A program made the translations under genes and the position numbers. DNA of 63,723 nt, counting the filler, from Collodictyon triciliatum (lineage: Eukaryota), in assembly GCA_043381765.1 (NCBI GenBank). It is 9 parts of 9 records of this genome, joined end to end, with 100 filler letters (N's around TTAATTAATTAA, not from the genome) between each part and the next. Parts side by side here need not be neighbours in the genome. Positions count along the whole stretch, not along the records: positions 9,296 to 18,375 come from JBHJMP010003126.1; 8 more parts are not named here. One strand, given 5' to 3'. Each line of letters opens with the position of its first letter. Position 1 is the first letter of the stretch. This document shows, in pieces, positions 9,196 to 61,769 of this stretch. The notes beneath the pieces were generated by a model. It ran no database searches. It was not told the origin of the DNA and saw only the letters and a list, made by a program, of their open reading frames with translations.

Positions 9196-9295
9196 NNNNN
9201 NNNNNNNNNNNNNNNNNNNNNNNNNNNNNNNNNNNNNNNTTAATTAATTAANNNNNNNNNNNNNNNNNNNNNNNNNNNNNNNNNNNNNNNNNNNN
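9196..9295. other. Assembly gap with artificial TTAATTAATTAA linker; same at 18376, 27640, 36932, 46192, 52321, 57215 and 61670; plain N gap at 20807-21531
   Basis: An identical 100-nt N44-TTAATTAATTAA-N44 block appears eight times; the linker puts stops in all six frames. Confidence 0.98.
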
Positions 9296-10529: not shown

Positions 10530-12330
10530 CTCATTCACTTTTGCCACACATTTGGATGCGGTGATTGAAATGCTCGCAAACATAGATTTTCTGATTCAGT
10601 CCAAAGCAGACTCACATCTGATAATAAAAGTGTCCATAATTTGATGAAGACTGCGACGATGTGCCGAAAGTGTGAACAATGACATTGTCTCTTGTCGTGT
10701 CATAAACGCGGATGTGATGGTATCCATGTTCACTCACCACAATTGTGTTGTTCGGACCTTTTGCAATCGAAACATGACCCGGCACATTATTGATTCTGAC
10801 AGTGCGCATACATCACCCCATCACATAATAAATATTGATTTTGCCTCCGCCGCATCCAATCACACACACTTCGCTCTTTGCAGTCACGCAAATGCCCTCC
10901 GGGGATGCGATTCCTTCATCGCCAGAGGATGCTGTCGCAAACGAGCGTTCGTACTCAAACACACGGTCGAACTTGTCCACTTGATTCTTGCTAAGGTTTG
11001 TGACATAAAGATTGCCTTCGCTGTCAAAGCATGGATTAAACGGATTGGAGAATCCGCCAAAGTCACTGGAATCTGTGCTTTGTGCGCTTCTTTTGCGACC
11101 CGACTGGATTGTCTCAATCATCTTGAAGTTATCATCAAAGATTTGTACACGATGATTAGAAGAGTCACAAACAGCGATGCATCCATCATGTGAAATGGAG
11201 ATTCCGATTGGATTGCTGAATTTACTTAAGCCTGAGCCATCCGTGCCAACCGTGCAGAAAAAGCTCAAATCCTCATTCAGCACTTGAACGCGGTGGTTAC
11301 AACGAACAACAACGAATATGTTCATAGTCTTTGGATGAGCTGCGATTTCCCCATGGATTAGAAAACTGTTGGGCTCCACTTCCATTTGAACCGACCTTCT
11401 TCTGAAACACGTAATCTTTGATGTTGTATTTCCACGGCTTCTGATACAAGTCTATGTCCATTCTCTTCTTCATTTCCTCCCCCTCTTTCATCTTCCCTTG
11501 CTCCATATTTGCAATATGTTCCTTCATTACGCGATGCTCCTGTACCTCACTCTCCGGCTCTTACATGTGCTTGTCTGTCTCGTTCATGCGTCTGCCACTC
11601 GGCGTTTTCTGTTCACAGCTCTTCCAAGACCGACTCACACTTTGCGTGGATTTCCTCCAGCACACGCGCCCCGCCTTCTCCTATCACAACGATGCCGCCA
11701 ATCTCGATGCTTGCTTACGGCTGCTCTACATCCACATTGCCGACTTCTTCGATGTCTATCTGCAAAGCTGTGCGAGCAAACATGGCGATCTTGAAAAGCT
11801 AGGTCACGAGTCCGTCGCGCTCGTATATCTCCTTGGGCTTTCTGAGCATGGAAATGGAGTGCCATAGAATGTTCTCTGATACCGCCATTCGATGCTATAT
11901 GTACTTGGTTTTTCCTGCAAGGCTACGATAGCCTGAATTCATTATCATCATCATTTTCCATGTTTAGTGAATTATGGATACAATCACACAACATAAAAAA
12001 AACCAATTTAGATTGCCAATACCGGACAATAACGATGATAAAAGGATTGATTACAGTTTCTTTCAGCTTCTCCTTCAGCTGTGCTGCTTTCTGCACAACA
12101 TCATCGTAAAATTTGTCGATCTTTGCATTTTGGTCTCGCTCCTCAGCATCAATCTAAGGAATTGAATATTCGAGGAAATAAACAGAAAAGAAGAAACATA
12201 TATAGCTTGAGCACTTCATGAATATACATTTTTCATTTCGCTCTCGACTTTTGACCTGATTTCAGCCCTTGCGTTGTTTTTCTTTCCATCTCCCCAATCA
12301 AGTCGTCATCCTTGATAGCATCATAATCGA
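10530..12330 (-). pseudogene. Coiled-coil + NHL-repeat beta-propeller (TRIM-NHL-like) pseudogene
   Basis: NHL repeats: GSGLSKFSNPIGI..IAVCDSSNHRVQIF, FSNPFNPCFDSEGNLYVT, IYVCEHFNHRIQ. Frameshift near 11350 (FSNPWG / EIAAHP), in-frame TGA at 10813 and 10612, and in-frame TAG/TAA/TGA at ~11550-11800. Upstream coiled-coil exon IDAEERDQNAKIDKFYDDVVQKAAQLKEKLKE at ~12055-12155. Confidence 0.8.
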
Positions 12331-12690
12331 TATTCTTAACTTTGATATATTCGTGCGTTTTGACGGTTTTTACATCTTGAAACCCACATTTATCACACAT
12401 TTCAGCTATGGGTCAGGATTGCTCGCAGATAAGGACGATGAGAAACTTTTGAATAATACATTCGCTGTGGTATTATCACCTATATATTATAGAGGTGATA
12501 ATACCACATTCGCGCATATTTACGACATGTTTTGCTCTGGCCTCAAGCAGTATGCTATTCAAAAAAAAAAAAATGTTATTCCCAGAATGTGATAAATTCA
12601 CAACAAAACTTTGTAATTGCGAGCTATTATTTTCAAAAACCAAAAAGGAAAAACAAACAAGTTAAAAGAAAAAAATATAAGGGAATTAAA

Positions 12691-12887
12691 GAAAAAGAAA
12701 AAGAAAAAGAAAAAGAAAAAGAAAAAGAAAAAGAAAAAGAAAAAGAAAAAGAAAAAGAAAAAAGATAAAGAAAAAAGAAAAAGAAAAAAGAAAAAAGAAA
12801 AGAAAAAGAAAAGAAAAGAAAAAAGAAAAAAGAAAAAAGAAAAAGAAAAAAGAAAAAGAAAAAGAAAAAAGAAAAGAAAAAAGAAAG
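12691..12887. repeat. (GAAAAA)n purine microsatellite
   Basis: Tandem gaaaaa units read directly. Confidence 0.95.
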
Positions 12888-13066: not shown

Positions 13067-16000
13067 TTAAGCTGTGGCTTTCTGTCTCCATTCAGCTGCT
13101 TTCTCGGTGTCCTTTCCAACACCCCATCCATTCTCATAGCACTCAGCAACAATAGAAACAGCTTGTGGATGTTTGTGTTTTTCACCAATTTTGTCTCCCC
13201 ATGTCTTGTATGTCAGAATGTCTTCCTTCATTCCGGCCATTTCCTTCAAAAAATTGAATGCCTCCTTTGAACCCTGTTGAACCAGTTCCTTCAGTTTTTC
13301 AAAGTCTAATGATAATTTCAAAGGAGCGATAACTTTCCAAAATTGAGCTCTCTCATTGTCCTTCTCAACACCCCATCCGTTTTCATAGCACTCAGCCATC
13401 ATCTGAGCCTGGAACTTAGTGAGCTTACCCTGCTCACAATAGACAGCAAAGTCCGCATCAAAGGAAGCAGCACCGATTGAAAGTAGGAGGGATTTGTTTA
13501 GTTGACTTAATCCTGTGACATTTCTGATTTGGATGTTTCCACCTTGCAGCTTTCTTGGGCCGATAATCTGGACTGTCTTTGCATCTTGGATTCTGTTGGT
13601 GTCAATCATGTTCATCGCGTCACTTGTTCTGTTGAATACTGCGATGACTTCCTCAGGCTTTTCTTTCTTGACGAGGTATTTTCCTTGGGTGTAAGTCACT
13701 TCTGATTTTTGCAGACTGTGTGTTTGGTTTCCTGTGGCTACATCCCAAATAATTATTGTTTTATCACCACTTCCAGAAGCCAGCCAATTTTCATCATTCG
13801 GTCCTTGAATATTGCAAATACAAATTAATTCGCTTGTGTGACCCTCTAATGTTTTGGTATGATTTCCAGTGGCTATATCCCAAACACGTATTGTTTTATC
13901 ACGACTTCCAGAAGCCAACCATTTTTCACCATTCGGCCCTTGAATACTGCAAACACTCTTGACACCTTCTGTATGTCCTTCTAATGTTTTGATTTGGTAT
14001 CCTGAGGCTACATCCCAAACACGTATTGTTTTATCTTGACTTCCAGAAGCCAACCATTTTTCACCATTCGGCCCTTGAATACTGCAAACACTCCTGATAC
14101 CACCCCAATGACCTTCTAATGTTTTGATTTGGTTTCCTGTGACTACATCCCAAATACGTATTGTTTTATCATTGCTTCCAGATACCAGCCAATTTTCACC
14201 ATTTGGTCCTTGAATACTGCAAACACTAGTGACAAAATCTGTATGACCTTTTAATGTTTTGATTTGGTGTCCTGTGACTACATCCCAAATACGTATTGTT
14301 TTATCATAACTTCCTGAAGCCAGCCAATTTTCACCATTCAGTCCTTGAATGCTGCAAACACAATTGACACCGTCTGTATGTCCTTCTAATGTTTTGATTT
14401 GGTTTCCTGTGGCTACATCCCAAATATGTATTGTTTTATCATCGCTTCCAGATGCCAGCCAATTTTCACCATTAGGTCCTTGAATACTGCAAACACTGAT
14501 GACACCGTATGTATGATCTTCTAATGTTTTGATTTGATTCCCTGTGGCTACATCCCAAATACTTATTGTTTTATCAAGACTTCCAGAAGCCAGCCACTTT
14601 TCACCATTAGGTCCTTGAATAGTGCAAACACAATTGACACCGTCTGTATGTCCTTCTAATGTTTTGATTTGGTTTCCTGTGGTTACATCCCAAATACGCA
14701 TTGTTTTATCTTCACTCCCAGAAGCCAACCAACTTTCACCATTCGGTCCTTGAATAGTGCAAACACTTCTGACACCGTCTGTATGTCCTTCTAATGTTTT
14801 GATTTGGTTTCCTGTGGCTACATCCCAAATACGTATTGTTTTATCCCGACTTCCGGAAGCCAACCAACTTTCACCATTCGGTCCTTGAATAGTGCAAACA
14901 CTTCTGACATAACCTGTGTGTCCTTCTAGTTTATCATGAGGAATTCCAAATTTCACATTATTCATATTCGCATTATCAAAAACACAGTCACCAAGCATCG
15001 AATTCGTGAAATCAACACCATCCAAGTTGGCACCAGTGAGATTTGCACCATCAAGGATTGAGTTATTGAGATTTGCATGTGGAATTTTGATGTTTGATAA
15101 ATCCATTCCACCAAGCGAAAAATTCATGAAATTCAAAAGTGTGATTGCATCAGATGCAGCCTTTGATTTGCTCTCATCAGTCTTTGACATATAGACAATT
15201 CTGAATAACGATGCAATAATTTGCTCACGATTCCATTCCTCATCTAGTTTTGTATCATCAAGAGTTTCACAGATGAATTCCTTGACTCTTGTTAACTCGA
15301 CAGGCTCTTTGAAGATTCCGATTTCTTTTGAATGGACGGACAAGTATTCGCACGAATTTAATGTTCTGGAGTGAATCCATCCGACTTTATCAGCAAATCT
15401 GTCTCTCATCTCAGTCCAGAATGCCATTGCTTCCTTGTGCTGCTTCAGTTCCTTGTAAGTCTTGTCTGCATTCTCACAAGCCACCCAGCAGTCCCAGTTT
15501 TCATAGGACTTTTCATCATGTCTGACAGCAGCTGTTTTGTAAAGCCGAATGACGGCTTCATGCTCTTTCTTGTCCTTCATGAGTTCCGCAATCCTTGTAC
15601 ATTGTGAACCATCTTTCAGTGACATGATTGTCTTAGTCTTCTTTCTGATAGCAGCTGCCTTCTGGAAGCAATCAACACATTGAGCAGAACTAGGTGCATG
15701 TAGATTAGTGAATATATATGTATTGTTTTTTATAACTATTAATAATAATATTCGATTTCTTTTAATATAAAGAAAAAAACCTTTGAAGCTCAAAGTTTGT
15801 TCGGCCAACATTCTCAAGGGAAGTCGCATAATCTGCATGCTTTTCGCCCAGTGTTCTCATGCGAATATCCAGCGTCTTTGTATAGGCCTCCAAAGCACCC
15901 TTAAAGCTAAGATAATTAGAGTAAATAAATTAATCTTTTCAATTAAAAATATGTAATAATTAATAAAAAGAGATACTCTTTCAAATCATGGCTGATGTCT

Positions 16001-18375
16001 CCAATCATTTCATAGCAAGCTACAACATTCGGATGATTTTCACCCAGAGCAGACATGAAAATATCCAGCGATTGCTTTAATGAGGACAAGGCCTCAGTTT
16101 TCCTATATAAGATAGTCATTGATATTTATTAATTTAGTTAGAATAATTGTATATAAAAATCTTCACCCCAAATAGGATACAAATGAAATACATAAAGCCA
16201 CGTTCATCTTTAAAAAATTGAAGGAAAGGAAAGTATTGCATGTAAATATCTGTAATTTAGAAATTCCAAACTTTCCACTGGCAAGATGAACACTCGCAAT
16301 GAACTGGATTGTCGAGGCAACAGATGCATGCTTGGCTCCAAGCGATTTTTCAAGGATAGATTTCGCCTTTTCGAAGTTTTCAATAGACTCTTCATACCTT
16401 GGTGATTCAATCATATTAATATTTCTCAAAAATATCACAACTGTATTTAAAATAAGCTTTAATCGAATAACTATATGCTACTTTTTCCCAGCCAGAGAGA
16501 CATGGCCATAGTTCTGGTACGATGTTGCGACAAGAGGATGCTCGCTTCCGACTTTCTTTTGGCGGATTTCCATGGCCTTTTTGTATTCAGCCAGAGCTTG
16601 CTCATTCCTATCGTAAAAAATTCATCAGCATACTTATATATTTACAGAAATAAAGGCAGGATATTAACGTCGAGTATATATGAATCAATTATTACTTTGA
16701 CTGCTTCACGTAGATGTCTCCGAAGCGGTCATGTGATTGGGCCACTTGCAAGTCGTTCTCGCCCAATTGTTTGATTCTCAATTCCAGTGATATCTTGTAT
16801 TCACCAAGAGCTTCATCAATTCTATTTCATAAGAAAAATCAGAATAATTCCTTTTTGAAACATTATTCATAATTTATTTTACAATTGAAAGAGAGCCTTA
16901 CTTGTCTTGTTGCTGGTAGATAATTCCCATCTCTTCATGAATGGTAGCGATACGCAGCAAATCATCTGCATTTTTCTCAACGACGTCGAGACATTTCTTG
17001 TAGTAGACCATGGACTGAGCCCAGCTGTTTAATTTTTATTTTATTTTAGAAAAGTTGCCATTATAAATAATCATAATTTCATGTCTTAATTAACAATCAT
17101 TAACGTTTTTTATTTTTATTTTTTTACTTTTGGAGGTTCTTGTAGACACGACCAAGATTCAGGTAATCAACAGCCTTCTCATCTGTAATTTGATAGATTA
17201 TTGAATATCTCCATATATAACTCATATTCATGACATAAATTCATCAAAAAGACAATAAATTGCATACCTTCTGTCTGATGCTTTCCAAGACGCACATTCA
17301 GAACAGACAACAAGAACGAATTCTCAAAAGACTCCAAGAAAAATCCAACAAGCAGGTCTCCCACATTATCCAAAGACTGAAAAAAACAAAATTAATAGAT
17401 AAATCATGATTCATAATTATACTTGTGAGTAGTCACCTTCAAAAAGTACAATAATTAATAAAATTACCTTAGCCAAGCTTCCATAAGCATCCTTGTAGTT
17501 CGCCGCTCCACTTGCGTTGATTGCTCTCCAGCATGTAAAGAACTCGTAGCGATAGCGACCGCCAAGCATGATGGTGATAACCTATGAAATATTTAAAAAA
17601 ATAAGTGAATGACATTTCATTATGAGTGAAAACAATTAAATAAAAATAAAGAAATTACATGTTTTTGCCTCATGTATTCGACAAGCAGGTCAAACGAACT
17701 GCCCTTCAGAAGCTGGTAGCATATTTCAGCAGCAAGCTCCTCATCCGCGTCAGAAGCCTCAGAATACTGGCCAAACAGCCATTTTCCGTATTTTTCGTGC
17801 GTTTTTTCCATCTCTTTCCCTTCGGAGAAATAAACCTTTTCAGTGGTCTCCAGCAGCAGCTGGTGGAAGTACATGTATCTATGATAGATAATAATTAGCT
17901 TTATATCCAAATCAAATAAAACCAAAAACACAGATTACCGAAAGAAAAGACTGAGAAATAACACCAACCTTCCATTGCGAACGAAAAGCGACTCGATGAG
18001 GGTAAAGAAGAAGGATTTCCTATTTTAATGAATAAAAGATAAGTTAAATAAGAAAAGAAAATGAGAAAGGGTAAACCTATTAATTCTGTTAAAATTCAAG
18101 AGTAAGCAAACCATTCAGCAAGCTCGAATCCTGTGCCAATCGCGTCTTTCATGTAATTGTCCAGGTCACCTTCACTCAGGCCGATGCGGGAAACAAATAG
18201 AACCTTCATCGAGAGGGAGACATACTCGACCTTCATTGTCTCTTTTCCACCAATTGTGGACACTGTAATAAAAAAAAACAATCAACAAAAATTGCTATTA
18301 TAATTTGCACATTTTATTTTTATGAAATATGTACAATCAATACTCACCTTTCCTGTCAAACTTCAGTTGCCAGCG
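13067..18375 (-). CDS. TPR + pentapeptide repeat + WD40 repeat + Sel1-like repeat protein; probable STAND/NACHT-type, N-terminus cut by gap
   Basis: Small exons at 15.8-18.4 kb encode a winged-helix-like region (FVSRIGLSEGDL, YMYFHQLLLE) and kinesin-light-chain-type TPRs (LGENDLQVAQSH, GSEHPLVATSY, LGAKHASVASTI, LGEKHADYATSL). Terminal exon 13067-15689 encodes pentapeptides (ANLNNSILDGANLTGANLDGVDF), 9 WD40 repeats and two AECYENGWGV Sel1-like motifs. Confidence 0.88.
13720..14930 (-). repeat. Coding tandem array of nine 135-bp (45-aa) WD40 repeats
   Basis: The (c)atcccaaa anchor recurs every 135 nt from 13741 to 14821. Unit consensus LEGHTxxVxSVCxIQGPNGExWLASGSxDKTIRIWDVATGNQIKT. Confidence 0.97.
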
Positions 18376-18475
18376 NNNNNNNNNNNNNNNNNNNNNNNNN
18401 NNNNNNNNNNNNNNNNNNNTTAATTAATTAANNNNNNNNNNNNNNNNNNNNNNNNNNNNNNNNNNNNNNNNNNNN

Positions 18476-18580: not shown

Positions 18581-18601
18581 TCAGTAAGTTGTAGAAAGTA
18601 C

Positions 18602-20756
18602 CAGGCGTTTGTCAAACATGTACTTCAAGCCCTCCTGGACGAGCTGATGAGCACGGCAGATGAGCTTGAGATTGTTCGTGTAGCAGAACTGTATTTTTTT
18701 CCAAGAAAAAATAAAGAAATATACACTTCGATGAGAAGGCTTGGATAGGCAGGATATAAGAAGGAGAAAACTTGGAGATTTCGGAACGCATGGATTCTAG
18801 AGTTGTTGTAGTGGTATGTATGTCCTTTATAAAAAAAAAATGACAAAATACGAAAGAATATATTATGATGTTTCGTCAGTCTTTAATCAAGCAGTGCAAG
18901 GTAATTACCTCTTCAGTTACTTTGGCACCGAAAATCCACCCAGCACCGCGAGGGCTAAAGAAGGAGGAAGGTTGAGCTTGACGTATTTGGATTAAAAATA
19001 AACCGGGAATAACTTCGGCAATCCTCATCCCTTCTATCTTAACTTGATAACCAGATGATATCATATGACATGGGATGGGTGACAGGCGATGGTTTTAACT
19101 AGGGAAAGGGACAAAGACGCTCAAACCTCATGGCCCATGACTCGATGTCTTCAGGATCGGACCACATGAGGTCTTCAGTAGACAAATAGGGTTGGTTAAT
19201 AAGCAGATGAATTATTCAAGCATCCAGTTGCAAATCATTTTGTAAATGAACTTGTCAAAGAAAATAATGAAATACCGCAGAAGGGTCCTTCGTGTGGAAT
19301 TTCGACATTCCTAGTAATAGTTCTGATTTGGTCGATGGTGCGGAGGTCTGGCAGTAACTTTGTGAGTTTAGAACTGCAAGAAAACTGCCTCATATATAGC
19401 TGCTGCCTTGGGTACTAAAATAATTCTCCCCTTCATAGTGGTGTAGCTGAGAATCAAGAGCTTACCAGGGGAGAGTCCACCATGTACACAGAAAATTCCA
19501 CCGTCAACGATCTAGTCGTGTATCATACAGAATATAGAATTAATGTCGTGGAGTATATATGTGGTATTGATAAGTCACTGGGAAGAAAAAATGGGAAGGG
19601 AAGGGAAAGACATAGCTAAACTTACAGCACCGAGCGTCAAGAGATCGAATACTTCTGTGCACCACTTCCAGGCGTTAGCGTTGCCGTACTTGGACTGGCA
19701 TTCATCGTAGAAACCGTACACTTGAGTGATTTGACGGCACTCGTGATTTCCTCGCAGAAGAGTGACGTGATCGGGGTACCTTTAGGTTATTTGATATGAG
19801 ACTATCCGCATAGGTAAAAGCTAGTTGTGTGCTATCAAAAAAACTGCGAATTCAACGTTTCGAATGAGGGAGGGAGAGAGAGAGTATGACATTGAGTGAT
19901 AAGATGACTAAATGTTTAATTCTAGCTTAGGAATGCCACAAACTTGACTTTGTACGCAAGGAGAAGGGAAAAGGTTTCCAGAGAGTAGTAACCGCGATCG
20001 ACATAATCTCCCTATTAAATAAAAAGGACATCATACAGTGCATGATATCGAATGCATGCACTATGCACAGAATATTGTAATGAATCACATATTATAAAAA
20101 GAAAAGGATAATACGGCTAGTCTTTCAGGTTGACTTAAACAGGTGCATGTTGAGGTATAAAAAAAAATGTGACAATGAAAGCCCATGAAAGGAGGGAAAA
20201 TAAGCAGTACGTTCGACAAAGATGGTTACCATGAAGATGTATTTAGAGTTTTCGGGCTCTCCGCCGTGCTTAAAGAGCTCCAGGAGGTCCCAGAATTGAC
20301 CGTGGATGTCTCCGCAGATCGTCACTGGTGCGCTGACTGGCTGCACATTTGACTCTTCCAAAAGAAGCTCCTTCACCTACACAGTCGAAGTGCAAAATAA
20401 CTGTGAGTTGGACTCTTTTTTTTTCTTTTTTTTTTTTTGTTGATGTTTGTTTTTTCGCCTCTGAAAGATGTGGGAGCTGTAGTTTACACATAGAGAGCTA
20501 ATTGTAATAATGTTCGAAATAGAGGAGCTGGAGGGATGAGGGTTGCACATTAGAAGTAAAAGACTAGCCGGGTAAAGGAAGTCGCTAGGAGAAGAATATC
20601 AGGAGAACGAAGAGGTAAAGTATATGGTATTCTGATTTCCTAGTCGGATGGCTATGTCCTATTCTAACTTACACTTTCACAGAGCTTTTTCAGATCACGC
20701 TCAGGCAAACTCTTGCATTCGCGAAGGTGTGCGATCCACTTGTCAACTTCAGCCAT
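18602..20756 (-). CDS. PPP6C: Ser/Thr protein phosphatase 6 catalytic subunit (PP6/Sit4 type), multi-exon; 3' end cut by gap
   Basis: ATG at 20756, [11 protein letters not shown] motifs GDIHGQF, GDYVDRG, LLRGNHE, HGGLSP, DLMWSDP. PP6-type [26 protein letters not shown] and [16 protein letters not shown]. Confidence 0.93.
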
Positions 20757-21790
20757 ATAAAGTCTGCTTTTCGACGCTCTCTGATCTTTCAAAAACTGAG
20801 GAGTTCNNNNNNNNNNNNNNNNNNNNNNNNNNNNNNNNNNNNNNNNNNNNNNNNNNNNNNNNNNNNNNNNNNNNNNNNNNNNNNNNNNNNNNNNNNNNNN
20901 NNNNNNNNNNNNNNNNNNNNNNNNNNNNNNNNNNNNNNNNNNNNNNNNNNNNNNNNNNNNNNNNNNNNNNNNNNNNNNNNNNNNNNNNNNNNNNNNNNNN
21001 NNNNNNNNNNNNNNNNNNNNNNNNNNNNNNNNNNNNNNNNNNNNNNNNNNNNNNNNNNNNNNNNNNNNNNNNNNNNNNNNNNNNNNNNNNNNNNNNNNNN
21101 NNNNNNNNNNNNNNNNNNNNNNNNNNNNNNNNNNNNNNNNNNNNNNNNNNNNNNNNNNNNNNNNNNNNNNNNNNNNNNNNNNNNNNNNNNNNNNNNNNNN
21201 NNNNNNNNNNNNNNNNNNNNNNNNNNNNNNNNNNNNNNNNNNNNNNNNNNNNNNNNNNNNNNNNNNNNNNNNNNNNNNNNNNNNNNNNNNNNNNNNNNNN
21301 NNNNNNNNNNNNNNNNNNNNNNNNNNNNNNNNNNNNNNNNNNNNNNNNNNNNNNNNNNNNNNNNNNNNNNNNNNNNNNNNNNNNNNNNNNNNNNNNNNNN
21401 NNNNNNNNNNNNNNNNNNNNNNNNNNNNNNNNNNNNNNNNNNNNNNNNNNNNNNNNNNNNNNNNNNNNNNNNNNNNNNNNNNNNNNNNNNNNNNNNNNNN
21501 NNNNNNNNNNNNNNNNNNNNNNNNNNNNNNNAAAAAATATTGATCAATCTTCTTCACTAAGAAATCTAAGCACCACACGAAAGAGAAAAGGAGGGAGGAG
21601 AGAGAGAAGAGAGGAGAGAGAGAAGAGAGGAGAGGAGAGAGAGAGGAAGATCGCCCCACAGGATAAACAGCGCGTGTCCCACTCTTTGCCGTTGCGCAGC
21701 GAGTGGTCGAGAGACACTCCTTCTCTTCAGTGGTGTGCCTTAAGAGTCTTGGCTCCACTGTCTCTTAGACGCAAGGATGCCTGCCTCATG

Positions 21791-27639: not shown

Positions 27640-27794
27640 NNNNNNNNNNNNNNNNNNNNNNNNNNNNNNNNNNNNNNNNNNNNTTAATTAATTAANNNNN
27701 NNNNNNNNNNNNNNNNNNNNNNNNNNNNNNNNNNNNNNNCAGAGTCTCATATGTGTAATATTGATGGATATTCAGCCAGCATGAATGCTTTACT

Positions 27795-36931: not shown

Positions 36932-37031
36932 NNNNNNNNNNNNNNNNNNNNNNNNNNNNNNNNNNNNNNNNNNNNTTAATTAATTAANNNNNNNNNNNNN
37001 NNNNNNNNNNNNNNNNNNNNNNNNNNNNNNN

Positions 37032-45753: not shown

Positions 45754-46291
45754 ATTTTCCGATACATGCATTACTTTATGTTCACAATTCCTTCTTTTTT
45801 TTTTTGTACTATATATCTCCTGCACCGATGGTTTTATTCGTGGATTTAGACTTTTTGCTACTCCCTCGTCTTCTATTCTCCATTCGATATTAGGGGGGAT
45901 TCATAATTTCCGCTCCTTTCTCTTCGTTTTTTTTATGTGTGTGGTGAATACTTTGTCCGTGCTTCTATGTTGGATCAGTAGCTTGAGTTTGTTGATTGAT
46001 TTGGTTGTCCATTCATCATTATTCCTTTTTTTTTTCTGGCCCCATAAAAGTTCAATCTCTTTACGTGGCCATTTGACTGGCACTGTTATTGATGTGAATA
46101 AAAAAAATTGAAATAGGCAAAAAAAAAAAAAAAAGAGGGAGATTGATTGATGGGCTTTGTCCGCACACCAGGAAAACAGCCTTCATTGGGTNNNNNNNNN
46201 NNNNNNNNNNNNNNNNNNNNNNNNNNNNNNNNNNNTTAATTAATTAANNNNNNNNNNNNNNNNNNNNNNNNNNNNNNNNNNNNNNNNNNNN

Positions 46292-52306: not shown

Positions 52307-52421
52307 AAGAAATACAAAAANNNNNNNNNNNNNNNNNNNNNNNNNNNNNNNNNNNNNNNNNNNNTTAATTAATTAANNNNNNNNNNNNNNNNNNNNNNNN
52401 NNNNNNNNNNNNNNNNNNNNT

Positions 52422-57177: not shown

Positions 57178-58081
57178 ACGGCCGTTTTTTTTTTTTTTAT
57201 TTAAATTTTTTTTTNNNNNNNNNNNNNNNNNNNNNNNNNNNNNNNNNNNNNNNNNNNNTTAATTAATTAANNNNNNNNNNNNNNNNNNNNNNNNNNNNNN
57301 NNNNNNNNNNNNNNTTTTTTATTTTGGTTTTTGGTTTTTTTTTTTTTTTTTTTTGTTCCCCCTTTTTTTTTTTTTTTTTTGTTTAAAAATACTGGGTGAA
57401 ACGTTATATATTTTTTTGTTTTGTTTACTTTTTGTGACTACGGCCGTATTCGATTTCTTAAATGAAACATTATTGTACCAAACAGCTACATGTTGAAGCT
57501 ATTCAGAGATTTTGTTTTTCACCAGGTATACTATGTCTATTGCTTATATATAATCTCTTATTTCACAAATGTCGATTTTGGATTCGTGTCTATTGAAGAA
57601 ACGAATTCTTTCTTCATAGATTGACGAAAGCGGGAAGCCTGTTATTGATTTGGGGCACATTGTCGATTGTTTAAACAAGGTAAGCCAAGATTATGCTCCT
57701 TTCAATTTCAAAGTATTTTCAATCATCTGCTTCAATTTCAGAGGCTTTGTGAGAGTAACTCAGATTTCCTTCTTTTTTTTCTATATTTCTTGTATCGATC
57801 ATTTCCAGTTGGATGCGGGATGCGATGAACGGATTATGTTAATGGACAGAGAAGAAAAGAACATCCTAGTTGTCACGTTTGTACTTGCGCTCAGTTGAGC
57901 ATTTAACCTTACAAATCAAGAATTCACCGGCGTTTTTCTTTCTTTTTTTCTTTTTTTTTTTTATTATCTTTTTAATGATTGGGGCTATGTAAAGGCAAAA
58001 ATTAAAATTAGATACAAGGATTTGAAAAAGAGCATCGAGCAATCGTTTGATGAGCTTATGGCTTTCGGTCGATTATCGTAA
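52607..58081 (+). CDS. PAN3: PAN2-PAN3 deadenylase subunit PAN3, multi-exon; start upstream of or in the gap
   Basis: CCCH finger CHDLVTQGSCSLEGNGCEYSH, then a P/Q-rich linker, then pseudokinase (DGRVYALR, WRRISHPNIV, EALLWT, IRLSGAG). C-terminal knob: LVKLGVINERP..WSETGER, YMLKLFRDFVFHQ, DLGHIVDCLNKLDAG. Stop TAA at 58079-58081. Confidence 0.95.
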
Positions 58082-61440: not shown

Positions 61441-61769
61441 TTCCCCAGAGAAGAAATCCAGCATTAATGAATGTTAATTAATTATCGTTACTCTTGCATG
61501 ATGAGCCAGTTAGTATTCACTCGAATATATCGCGTCTTATTTTTTTTTCGTGCATACAGAGATGATAACATAAATGTATATATTTTGTGTTTTTTCAATT
61601 GATTGGAAATATAATCCGATCCTGAATTCAAAATGGTTGTAAAAGAAAGCGCTCTGTCCGCGGTGTAAANNNNNNNNNNNNNNNNNNNNNNNNNNNNNNN
61701 NNNNNNNNNNNNNTTAATTAATTAANNNNNNNNNNNNNNNNNNNNNNNNNNNNNNNNNNNNNNNNNNNN

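What the first reader, a model, noticed from the sequence alone, without database searches (positions are those of the whole stretch)
13720..14930. Homogenised WD40 array with focused hypervariable codons: candidate NLR/HET-E-like diversifying receptor in a protist
Seen: nine 135-bp repeats are close to identical in DNA, including most synonymous sites, yet a few codons change radically. The SGS-x-D position reads R,E,L,D,Y,N,Q,R,G (CGG,GAA,CTT,GAT,TAT,AAT,CAA,CGT,GGT). The two residues after GHT read GY,DG,DG,YG,DG,DF,(W)GG,EG,SE. The residue after V/I/L reads R,R,N,I,N,T,R,K,I. Established: fungal HNWD/HET-E NLRs combine concerted evolution with positive selection at equivalent top-face propeller positions. 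Inference: this is a non-self or pathogen recognition receptor whose binding surface is reshuffled by repeat recombination.
Basis: partly seen in the sequence, partly recalled or inferred. Interest (0 to 1): 0.8.

Follow-up and report, generated by a model that had tools for sequence, protein, structure and literature searches.

The report
Repetitive WD40 sensor array, protist NLR-like gene
A protist gene related to NACHT-type signalling ATPases ends in nine very similar WD40 repeats that differ mostly at ligand-facing residues, a pattern already known from fungal and bacterial immune-like receptors.

Summary
"Close to identical" overstates it. Pairwise DNA identity is 75-90%, 57 of 135 nucleotide columns vary, and pS is 0.25.

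The change is focused. Codons 6, 7, 9 and 28 of the unit sit in the D-A loop, at the start of strand A and in the B-C turn of an AlphaFold model. Their dN is about 0.95, against an array-wide dS of 0.30. My own M2a-versus-M1a test gives p = 0.015-0.024 on four trees.

The gene runs off its roughly 9-kb contig. Its upstream exons match the module that follows a DUF4062-NACHT NTPase in Diphylleia rotans proteins, so an NLR-like architecture is inferred, not seen.

All nine units resemble one unit of the closest relative, which points to a young or homogenised array. Recombination, allelic variation and repeat-number polymorphism remain untested.

Two runs each hold hundreds of related short contigs, which suggests a multi-copy family.

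Verdict: a new member of a known kind (highly repetitive WD40 arrays with variable hotspot residues). A receptor function is plausible but unproven.

The parts
18348..18375 (-). Exon fragment at the very edge of the contig, with an open frame and no start codon. It is followed by a GTGAGT donor. It aligns to the 'RW(E/Q)xK(Y/F)' stretch that precedes the winged-helix-like segment in the NACHT-bearing relatives.
   Evidence: Sequence. Junction search. Alignments to P0121-P0124 reach the first residue of the fragment; the gain in score is small (123 versus 113 for P0121).
17182..18241 (-). Several short exons encoding the helical, winged-helix-like module. In relatives this module lies directly C-terminal of the NACHT/nSTAND1 NTPase. 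Exon borders were not resolved.
   Evidence: tblastn: P0003 aa 2-222, and P0121 aa 982-1206, P0122 aa 135-299, P0123 and P0124. No Pfam family for the largest exon.
15777..17177 (-). About six short exons, each encoding a TPR_12-type (kinesin-light-chain-like) repeat, separated by short introns. Exact splice sites were not resolved.
   Evidence: Stop-to-stop ORFs. Pfam TPR_12 matches in 5 of 6 exon ORFs tested, E 2.6e-7 to 6e-4, most just below the gathering score because each piece is short. Colinear tblastn of P0003 and P0122.
13067..15709 (-). Large last exon (approximate 5' border) including the stop codon at 13067-13069. It encodes a linker, pentapeptide repeats, the WD40 array, a second linker and Sel1 repeats.
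   Evidence: ORF 13067-15838. P0003 aa 466-1211 aligns to 15709-13334 at 39% identity.
14948..15133 (-). Pentapeptide-repeat segment immediately before the first WD40 unit.
   Evidence: Pfam PF00805, E 6e-11 (42.1 bits, cut-off 20.2). PF13599 matches at ORF residues 236-297.
13715..14929 (-). Nine tandem 135-bp (45-aa) WD40 units. Unit starts are at 14929, 14794, 14659, 14524, 14389, 14254, 14119, 13984 and 13849. The hot codons are columns 6, 7, 9 and 28 of each unit.
13070..13430 (-). C-terminal tail with two Sel1 repeats (approximate limits).
   Evidence: Pfam PF08238, E 7.7e-11, 2 stretches. The same tail occurs in Diphylleia P0003 and P0122.

Best explanation
This is the C-terminal sensor part of a multi-exon protist gene. 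The gene belongs to a family of NACHT-type STAND (NLR-like) NTPases known so far only as Diphylleia rotans transcripts. The family layout is DUF4062, NACHT/nSTAND1, a helical module, TPR_12 repeats, pentapeptide repeats, 45-aa WD40 units and a Sel1 tail. The contig ends inside the gene, so the NTPase itself is not in the window.

The WD40 domain is a young, highly repetitive nine-blade array. It was amplified from, or homogenised to, a single unit type. The framework is under purifying constraint (omega about 0.1-0.2). The residues of the D-A loop, the start of strand A and the B-C turn have diverged at or above the synonymous rate. On a WD40 propeller these lie on the top, ligand-binding face.

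Inferred mechanism, not shown: the varied top face binds a ligand, binding relieves autoinhibition of the NTPase, and the protein oligomerises and signals, as in other STAND/NLR proteins.
For: Array and hot codons:
- The array and its hot codons are. dN of the hot codons is 0.95, against 0.10 for the rest and an array-wide dS of 0.30.
- Own-script codon models on the IQ-TREE tree give M1a lnL -604.95 and M2a lnL -600.87. The LRT is 8.17 (p 0.017), omega2 is 2.7 for 13% of codons, and NEB posteriors are 0.999 for site 28, 0.91 for site 6 and 0.89 for site 9.
- The same test on star, NJ and NJ-without-hot-codons trees gives LRT 7.5-8.4 and p 0.015-0.024.

Structure:
- The AlphaFold model has 36 strands forming nine four-stranded blades, with pLDDT about 85-94 over the array.
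- Columns 6-7 end the D-A loop, column 9 is the second residue of strand A, and column 28 opens the B-C turn.
- The best fold matches are a 'highly repetitive propeller' (2ymu) and 8-bladed WD40 propellers.

Young or homogenised array:
- 9 of 9 units best match the same unit of P0003, at 0.57-0.71 identity.
- Internal identity is 0.76 here, against 0.33-0.46 in the three Diphylleia proteins.
- Columns that vary freely in Diphylleia units (15, 18, 31, 2, 5, 39; 2.4-3.4 bits) are invariant or nearly so here, at 0-0.5 bits.

Family:
- P0003 is colinear over aa 2-1211.
- The N-terminal module recurs behind DUF4062 plus NACHT/nSTAND1/NPHP3_N in P0121, P0123 and P0124.
- The frame is open to the contig edge and alignable there.

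Multi-copy:
- 485 contigs of run X1 and 432 of run X2 lay on 3.1 kb at 85-100% likeness.
- Up to 14-20 contigs cover single non-repeat positions.
Against: - No NTPase or effector domain is in the window. The link rests on homology of the adjoining module and on a 9-residue edge exon that adds only 10 score units.
- P0003 is called a complete ORF without an NTPase, so NTPase-less forms may exist.
- Comparing blades within one gene cannot separate ongoing diversification from fixed specialisation of each blade for one partner.
- The test rests on 9 sequences of 45 codons, and p is only about 0.02. Gene conversion can inflate such tests.
- Within the hot codons themselves pS is also high (0.45), so their own dN/dS is only about 1.4.
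- Lesser variable columns (38 and 41 in the C-D loop, 21, 33, 13) are not on the top face.
- Column 30 (D+1) is invariant.
- Internal identity (0.76) is below the 85% used for fungal high-internal-conservation repeats.
- dS of 0.30 shows there has been no recent homogenisation.
- PHI is not significant: p 0.14 and 0.05.
- The assembly is fragmentary and the family is multi-copy, so unit order and number lack independent support.
Confidence: 0.55

Rival explanations
1. This is a young but functionally fixed scaffold propeller. One WD40 unit was duplicated not long ago, and each blade then acquired and kept its own top-face residues to bind a single asymmetric partner. There is no ongoing diversification, no allelic hypervariability and no immune-type role.
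For: - Only within-gene comparisons are available.
- dS among units is 0.30, so the units have been diverging for some time.
- PHI gives no significant recombination signal.
- Column 30 is invariant.
- Internal identity is 0.76, and only 1 of 36 pairs reaches 0.85.
- Hu et al. 2017 (PMC5587647, passages read) describe highly repetitive WD40 proteins with diverse hotspot sites as products of recent repeat duplication, without invoking immunity.
Against: - The omega>1 class is favoured on four trees.
- Related contigs in other runs differ from unit 1 at columns 6, 7, 9 and 13, while the other listed changes there are synonymous. This is anecdotal: it rests on 14 array differences among the 40 shown of 538.
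- The family is multi-copy and linked to NACHT NTPases.
Confidence: 0.25
2. The pattern is neutral. The top-face positions are simply unconstrained (omega = 1) in a recently amplified array, and the apparent excess of replacements is noise, multiple hits or a gene-conversion artefact.
For: - Power is small and the p value modest.
- dN/dS computed inside the hot codons alone is about 1.4.
- 42% of informative site pairs are incompatible, so the tree model is violated.
Against: - M1a, which allows omega = 1, is rejected at p 0.015-0.024 on four topologies.
- Columns that are as free or freer in the Diphylleia relatives (15, 18, 2, 5, 31, 39) have hardly changed here. The variation is therefore not spread over all weakly constrained columns.
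Confidence: 0.12
3. The array is an assembly artefact. It would be a chimera or collapse of reads from many paralogous arrays, so the unit order, the unit number and the particular combinations of hot residues are not real.
For: - The window is a chain of short contigs joined by N44 + 12 bp + N44 spacers.
- The contig is about 9 kb and cuts the gene.
- Hundreds of related short contigs occur in other runs, and none spans the stretch.
Against: - There is a perfect 135-bp register with 0% indels and an uninterrupted 923-aa frame.
- The flanks are colinear with P0003 on both sides.
- Units differ by 10-25%, which 100-150-nt reads can usually tell apart.
Confidence: 0.08

Closest known systems
Fungal NWD/HNWD NLR-like proteins (Podospora anserina HET-E, HET-D, HET-R)
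   Same: - A NACHT-family context, here by homology only.
- A WD40 array with high internal similarity.
- Replacements focused on the residues flanking the consensus V (D-A loop and start of strand A) and on the residue before the consensus D (B-C turn).
- A site test favouring omega>1.
- A multi-copy family.
(Paoletti 2007, PMC1805685, passages; Dyrka 2014, PMC4986451, passages.)
   Different: - The unit is 45 aa, with a 3-residue longer A-B loop, rather than 42.
- Internal identity is 0.76, against about 0.85 and up to 100%.
- Only three of the four positions vary; D+1 is a fixed K.
- TPR_12, pentapeptide and Sel1 modules flank the array.
- No HET domain was seen.
- No evidence was obtained for repeat exchange, RIP or repeat-number polymorphism.
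- The lineage is an unrelated protist, not a fungus.
Highly-Repetitive (HR) WD40 proteins of prokaryotes, protists and fungi (Hu et al. 2017, PMC5587647)
   Same: - Internal repeat identity is above their 0.7 cut-off, by my own measure of 0.76.
- The framework is conserved and the predicted top-face hotspot sites are diverse.
- The best structural match is the 'highly repetitive propeller' 2ymu.
- Metagenomic P0001 shows the same pattern.
   Different: Their identity measure was not reproduced exactly. Most of their cases are cyanobacterial or fungal 42-aa units.
NACHT/NB-ARC-pentapeptide-WD40 proteins of Reticulomyxa filosa and cyanobacteria (P0094, P0097, P0006, P0013)
   Same: A pentapeptide segment is joined directly to a long WD40 array behind a STAND NTPase. 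Identity over the WD40 part is 37-41%.
   Different: They have no TPR_12 block, no Sel1 tail and 42-aa units. Their internal identity is about 0.61-0.62.
Animal NWD1 / NPHP3-type STAND NTPases
   Same: The relatives match Pfam NPHP3_N, NACHT, DUF4062 and TPR_NPHP3/TPR_12. That NWD1 and NPHP3 have these layouts is recalled, not tested here.
   Different: The combination TPR + pentapeptide + WD40 + Sel1 in one protein, and the repetitive array, are not features I know from the animal proteins (recalled).

Membership tests
STAND / NLR-like NTPase (NACHT clade) | Central P-loop NTPase domain (NACHT/NB-ARC) with Walker A and B motifs | not testable with these tools
   The contig ends at 18375, inside the gene. 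tblastn with P0121-P0124 finds no NTPase part in any other contig of the window. Relatives P0121, P0123 and P0124 have NACHT/nSTAND1/NPHP3_N directly upstream of the shared module.
STAND / NLR-like NTPase (NACHT clade) | Helical or winged-helix module following the NTPase, homologous to that of bona fide members | tested here: met
   Window 18230-17182 aligns to P0121 aa 982-1206, and equivalently to P0122-P0124. P0003 aa 1-240 is 67-68% identical to P0121 and P0122. The frame is open and alignable to the contig edge.
STAND / NLR-like NTPase (NACHT clade) | C-terminal superstructure-forming repeat sensor (WD40, TPR, ANK or LRR) | tested here: met
   TPR_12 exons, pentapeptide repeats, nine WD40 units and Sel1 repeats.
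Fungal HNWD / HET-E type | N-terminal HET (or other death/effector) domain | not testable with these tools
   The 5' part of the gene is absent. Relatives carry DUF4062 with CH, RRM or coiled-coil regions, and no HET match.
Fungal HNWD / HET-E type | High internal conservation of repeats (over 85% identity over at least 100 aa; Dyrka 2014) | tested here: not met
   Mean amino-acid identity is 0.76, and 1 of 36 unit pairs is at or above 0.85.
Fungal HNWD / HET-E type | Positive selection at four top-face codons (7, 9, 25, 27) | tested here: inconclusive
   The equivalents of 7, 9 and 25 (columns 7, 9, 28), plus column 6, are hypervariable. M2a versus M1a gives p 0.015-0.024. The equivalent of 27 (column 30) is invariant. 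The sample is small and within one gene only.
Fungal HNWD / HET-E type | Concerted evolution: repeat exchange within and between paralogues, and repeat-number polymorphism | tested here: inconclusive
   All 9 units resemble one P0003 unit, which fits homogenisation or recent amplification. PHI gives p 0.14 and 0.05. No paralogue or allele sequences could be retrieved.
Highly-Repetitive WD40 (Hu et al. 2017) | Internal sequence identity at or above 0.7, with variable hotspot sites | tested here: met
   Mean identity is 0.76, and 30 of 36 pairs are at or above 0.70. Hot columns 6, 7, 9 and 28. Their exact metric was not reproduced.

The most novel reading that the evidence does not exclude
A deep-branching protist lineage close to the collodictyonid Diphylleia carries a large, rapidly diversifying repertoire of receptors with the layout DUF4062-NACHT-TPR-pentapeptide-WD40-Sel1. 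Their repetitive WD40 arrays would generate new binding surfaces by unit amplification or exchange plus positive selection. That would be an NLR-type non-self, prey or pathogen recognition system that arose independently of, or is anciently shared with, the fungal HNWD and bacterial NLR-like systems.
Probability: 0.25. Interest if true: 0.65.

Novelty: new member of a known kind. Interest (0 to 1): 0.42.

Why it matters
Highly repetitive WD40, ANK or TPR arrays with hypervariable ligand-contact residues mark rapidly evolving NLR-like receptors in fungi and bacteria. Finding the same signature in a NACHT-linked, multi-copy gene family would extend the pattern beyond fungi, animals, plants and bacteria. 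This holds if the family belongs to a protist related to Diphylleia, in the CRuMs group (that placement is recalled, not tested). It would also give a concrete gene family in which to ask whether free-living predatory protists use STAND receptors for non-self or pathogen recognition.

No paper in the library links Diphylleia (the protist) with NACHT. As it stands this is one truncated gene with modest statistics.

Tried and rejected
- No whole genome is held for the window, so no genome-wide paralogue search was possible. There is no paralogue elsewhere in the window.
- A protein search with the C-terminal 212 aa returned 94 generic Sel1 proteins and no family member, with best identity 57% over 14% and 34-37% over about 50% of the query.
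- The JGI metagenome scan found 12 loci with best segments at 26-37% identity (one at 52% over 225 nt), so no close relatives.
- Sequencing runs: no run holds more than 0.11 of the sampled words, and no RNA holder is listed. Nothing can therefore be said about expression. No laid contig spans the array, so repeat number and order could not be compared between samples.
- The PHI recombination test was not significant.
- IQ-TREE on the family units timed out. The FastTree tree is poorly resolved and was used only descriptively.
Face assignment rests on the DSSP strand order and the known WD40 topology, not on measured distances.
- Literature searches for Reticulomyxa + pentapeptide and foraminifera + NLR/NACHT gave nothing relevant.
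- Supplements of Paoletti 2007 and Dyrka 2014 were not opened; Paoletti's table of residue combinations at the selected positions could refine the comparison.
- Earlier scan notes: none for this genome. One unrelated hit by sequence.
Full report
**What is there.**

The window is not one stretch of genome. It is a chain of short contigs joined by spacers of 44 N, a 12-bp stop-in-all-frames linker and another 44 N (N runs; linker read). The finding lies in the contig at 9296-18375.

On its minus strand a 923-aa open frame (13067-15838) contains one tandem array. It spans 13723-14928, with period 135, 8.9 copies, 86% matches and no indels. Cut in register, this gives nine 45-aa WD40 units at 14929-13715. 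Pfam reports 9 WD40 stretches, E 7e-91.

The description 'close to identical in DNA including most synonymous sites' is too strong:
- Pairwise DNA identity is 75-90%.
- 57 of 135 nucleotide columns vary.
- Only 11 of 45 codon columns are identical in all nine units.
- pS is 0.247, giving dS 0.30.
- Mean amino-acid identity is 0.76, range 0.60-0.89.

**Focus of the variation.**

I number the unit from its first residue, so the GH dipeptide is columns 3-4. On that numbering the most variable columns are 28, 9, 6 and 7, followed by 21, 33, 13 and 38.

Rates:

| Codons | pN | dN |
|---|---|---|
| Hot (6, 7, 9, 28) | 0.54 | 0.95 |
| Other 41 | 0.09 | 0.10 |

The array-wide dS is 0.30. The few synonymous sites inside the hot codons are themselves divergent (pS 0.45), so the ratio within those codons alone is only about 1.4.

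I wrote Goldman-Yang site models (F3x4). On the IQ-TREE topology:
- M0 gives omega 0.40.
- M1a lnL is -604.95 and M2a lnL is -600.87.
- The LRT is 8.17 (p 0.017), with omega2 2.7 for 13% of codons.
- Posteriors are 0.999 (site 28), 0.91 (site 6), 0.89 (site 9), 0.77 (site 38) and 0.66 (site 7).

Star, NJ and NJ-without-hot-codons trees give LRT 7.5-8.4 and p 0.015-0.024.

This is modest support. It rests on nine sequences of 45 codons and a poorly supported tree. In addition, 42% of informative site pairs are incompatible, and gene conversion can inflate such tests.

**Where the hot codons sit.**

An AlphaFold2 single-sequence model of ORF residues 296-790 has mean pLDDT 75.7 and pTM 0.67, with pLDDT about 85-94 across the array. 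It shows 36 strands arranged as nine four-stranded blades. The tail beyond the ninth unit is unconfident.

Reading the DSSP string in unit register:
- Strand A is columns 8-15.
- Strand B is columns 21-27.
- Strand C is columns 32-36.
- Strand D is column 42 to column 1 of the next unit.

Columns 6-7 therefore end the D-A loop, column 9 is the second residue of strand A, and column 28 opens the B-C turn.

Paoletti et al. 2007 (PMC1805685, passages read) place the four positively selected HET-E/NWD codons in exactly these two elements, on the top of the propeller. Codons 7 and 9 flank consensus 8, and codons 25 and 27 flank consensus 26. Here columns 7 and 9 flank V8, and column 28 precedes D29. 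The fourth equivalent, column 30, is an invariant K.

The lesser variable columns 38 and 41 lie in the C-D loop, which is the other face by the standard WD40 topology. The clustering therefore holds for the strongest sites, not for all.

I had no model coordinates, so no distances were measured.

Foldseek's best hit is 2ymu, 'a highly repetitive propeller structure'. It is followed by 8-bladed designed and natural WD40 propellers, with TM about 0.8 on the target. Sequence search of the PDB agrees.

**What gene this is.**

Upstream of the big exon, short minus-strand exons encode TPR_12-type repeats. Pentapeptide repeats (PF00805, E 6e-11) abut the first WD40 unit, and two Sel1 repeats end the protein.

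Of 6697 hits in the first protein search, almost all match only the WD40 part. P0003 is the exception, at 39% identity over 86% of the query. It is colinear with the window from 18221 to 13334.

Searching with P0003's first 240 residues found 5 proteins, including P0003 itself, among 539 candidates. In them the same module follows a NTPase (Pfam; sequences):
- P0121: CH, DUF4062, then NACHT/nSTAND1.
- P0123: DUF4062, then NPHP3_N/AAA_16, then TPR.
- P0124: RRM, DUF4062, then NACHT.
- P0122: NTPase tail, module, TPR, pentapeptide, WD40, Sel1 and more.

All are EukProt transcripts of Diphylleia rotans.

In the window the module maps to 18230-17182. The contig begins with a 28-nt open exon fragment followed by a GTGAGT donor. 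Alignments to all four relatives run to the fragment's first residue, although it adds only 10 score units.

So the gene is cut by the contig end. It very probably continues into a NACHT-type NTPase, but that domain is not in the window. P0003 itself is annotated as a complete ORF lacking it.

**Young or homogenised array.**

The Diphylleia proteins share the unusual 45-aa unit with the longer A-B loop, but their units are far more diverged. Internal identities for units scoring at least 20 bits:

| Protein | Units kept | Internal identity |
|---|---|---|
| Window gene | 9 of 9 | 0.76 |
| P0003 | 7 of 7 | 0.46 |
| P0122 | 7 of 11 | 0.33 |
| P0108 | 7 of 11 | 0.35 |
| P0097 (Reticulomyxa) | 9 of 14 | 0.62 |
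| P0094 (Reticulomyxa) | 9 of 16 | 0.61 |
| P0001 (metagenomic) | 10 of 11 | 0.80 |

All 9 window units are most similar to the same P0003 unit, at 0.57-0.71. The array therefore descends from, or was homogenised to, one unit type.

Columns that vary freely in the Diphylleia units (15, 18, 2, 5, 31, 39; 2.4-3.4 bits) are fixed or nearly fixed here, at 0-0.5 bits. The variation is thus not simply spread over all weakly constrained positions.

A PHI test for recombination inside the array is not significant, with p 0.14 and 0.05.

**Copies elsewhere.**

No run holds more than 11% of the sampled words. When laid at 85% likeness or better, two small runs of one study gave 485 and 432 short contigs on the 3.1-kb stretch. 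For the first, 49 were at 99% or more, 163 at 95-99%, 195 at 90-95% and 78 below 90%. Two freshwater or sediment metagenomes gave 57 and 42 contigs.

Single positions in the non-repeat flanks are covered by up to 14-20 different contigs. This points to a multi-copy family in related organisms.

Of the 40 differences shown (498 more were not shown), 14 fall in the array:
- 5 are synonymous.
- 4 hit columns 6, 7 and 9, plus one at column 13.
- 3 replace a unit-specific odd residue with the array consensus.
- 1 is a single change within a codon that would differ at several positions.

This is anecdotal. No contig spans the array, so repeat number and order have no independent support. Protein and metagenome searches retrieved no close paralogue, and no genome is held.

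**Comparison with what is known.**

The signature is established for three groups:
- The fungal NWD/HNWD family.
- Fungal NLRs generally, with a criterion of 85% internal identity (Dyrka 2014, PMC4986451, passages).
- 'Highly-Repetitive' WD40 proteins of prokaryotes, protists and fungi, with a cut-off of 0.7 and hotspot sites noted as diverse (Hu 2017, PMC5587647, passages).

The array here meets the second cut-off (0.7) but not the first (85%).

I found no paper in the library linking Diphylleia (the protist) to NACHT.

I therefore file this as a new member of a known kind. It is an NLR-like, WD40-sensor gene of a protist family with a focused, probably adaptive, variable top face. The selection claim is weakly supported. 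The claims of repeat reshuffling and non-self recognition remain untested.

Noticed in passing
window 9196-9295, 18376-18475, 27640-27739, 36932-37031, 46192-46291, 52321-52420, 57215-57314, 61670-61769: Eight identical spacers (44 N, a 12-bp linker with stops in all frames, then 44 N) show that the window is a concatenation of nine separate contigs. Neighbouring pieces need not be adjacent in the genome.
   Followed up: partly
window 18581-20376, minus strand (next contig): Multi-exon gene for a PP2A/PP4/PP6-like serine/threonine phosphatase catalytic subunit. Two exons match Pfam Metallophos; the subfamily was read by eye only. A 725-N gap follows at 20807-21531.
   Followed up: partly
window 10813-11385, minus strand (same contig as the finding): A 190-aa ORF with an NHL repeat (PF01436, E 3.8e-10), about 1.7 kb downstream of the WD40 gene's stop codon.
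   Followed up: partly
window 12642-12886: A long A-rich low-complexity tract (AAAGAA/AAAAAGA units, about 245 bp) just 3' of the gene's stop codon. Similar purine or A-rich microsatellites recur across the window.
   Followed up: no
P0001 (metagenomic protein, 1506 aa): It carries at least 11 WD40 units of 42 aa with internal identity 0.80. Variation is concentrated at the same positions (after GH, the start of strand A, D-1 and D+1). This is a textbook highly repetitive array behind pentapeptide repeats.
   Followed up: partly
P0122 (Diphylleia rotans, 1849 aa): This family member continues beyond the Sel1 tail into further domains. The precomputed Pfam list includes PF06701; I read that as MIB/HERC2 from memory. 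The family's C-terminus is therefore modular.
   Followed up: no
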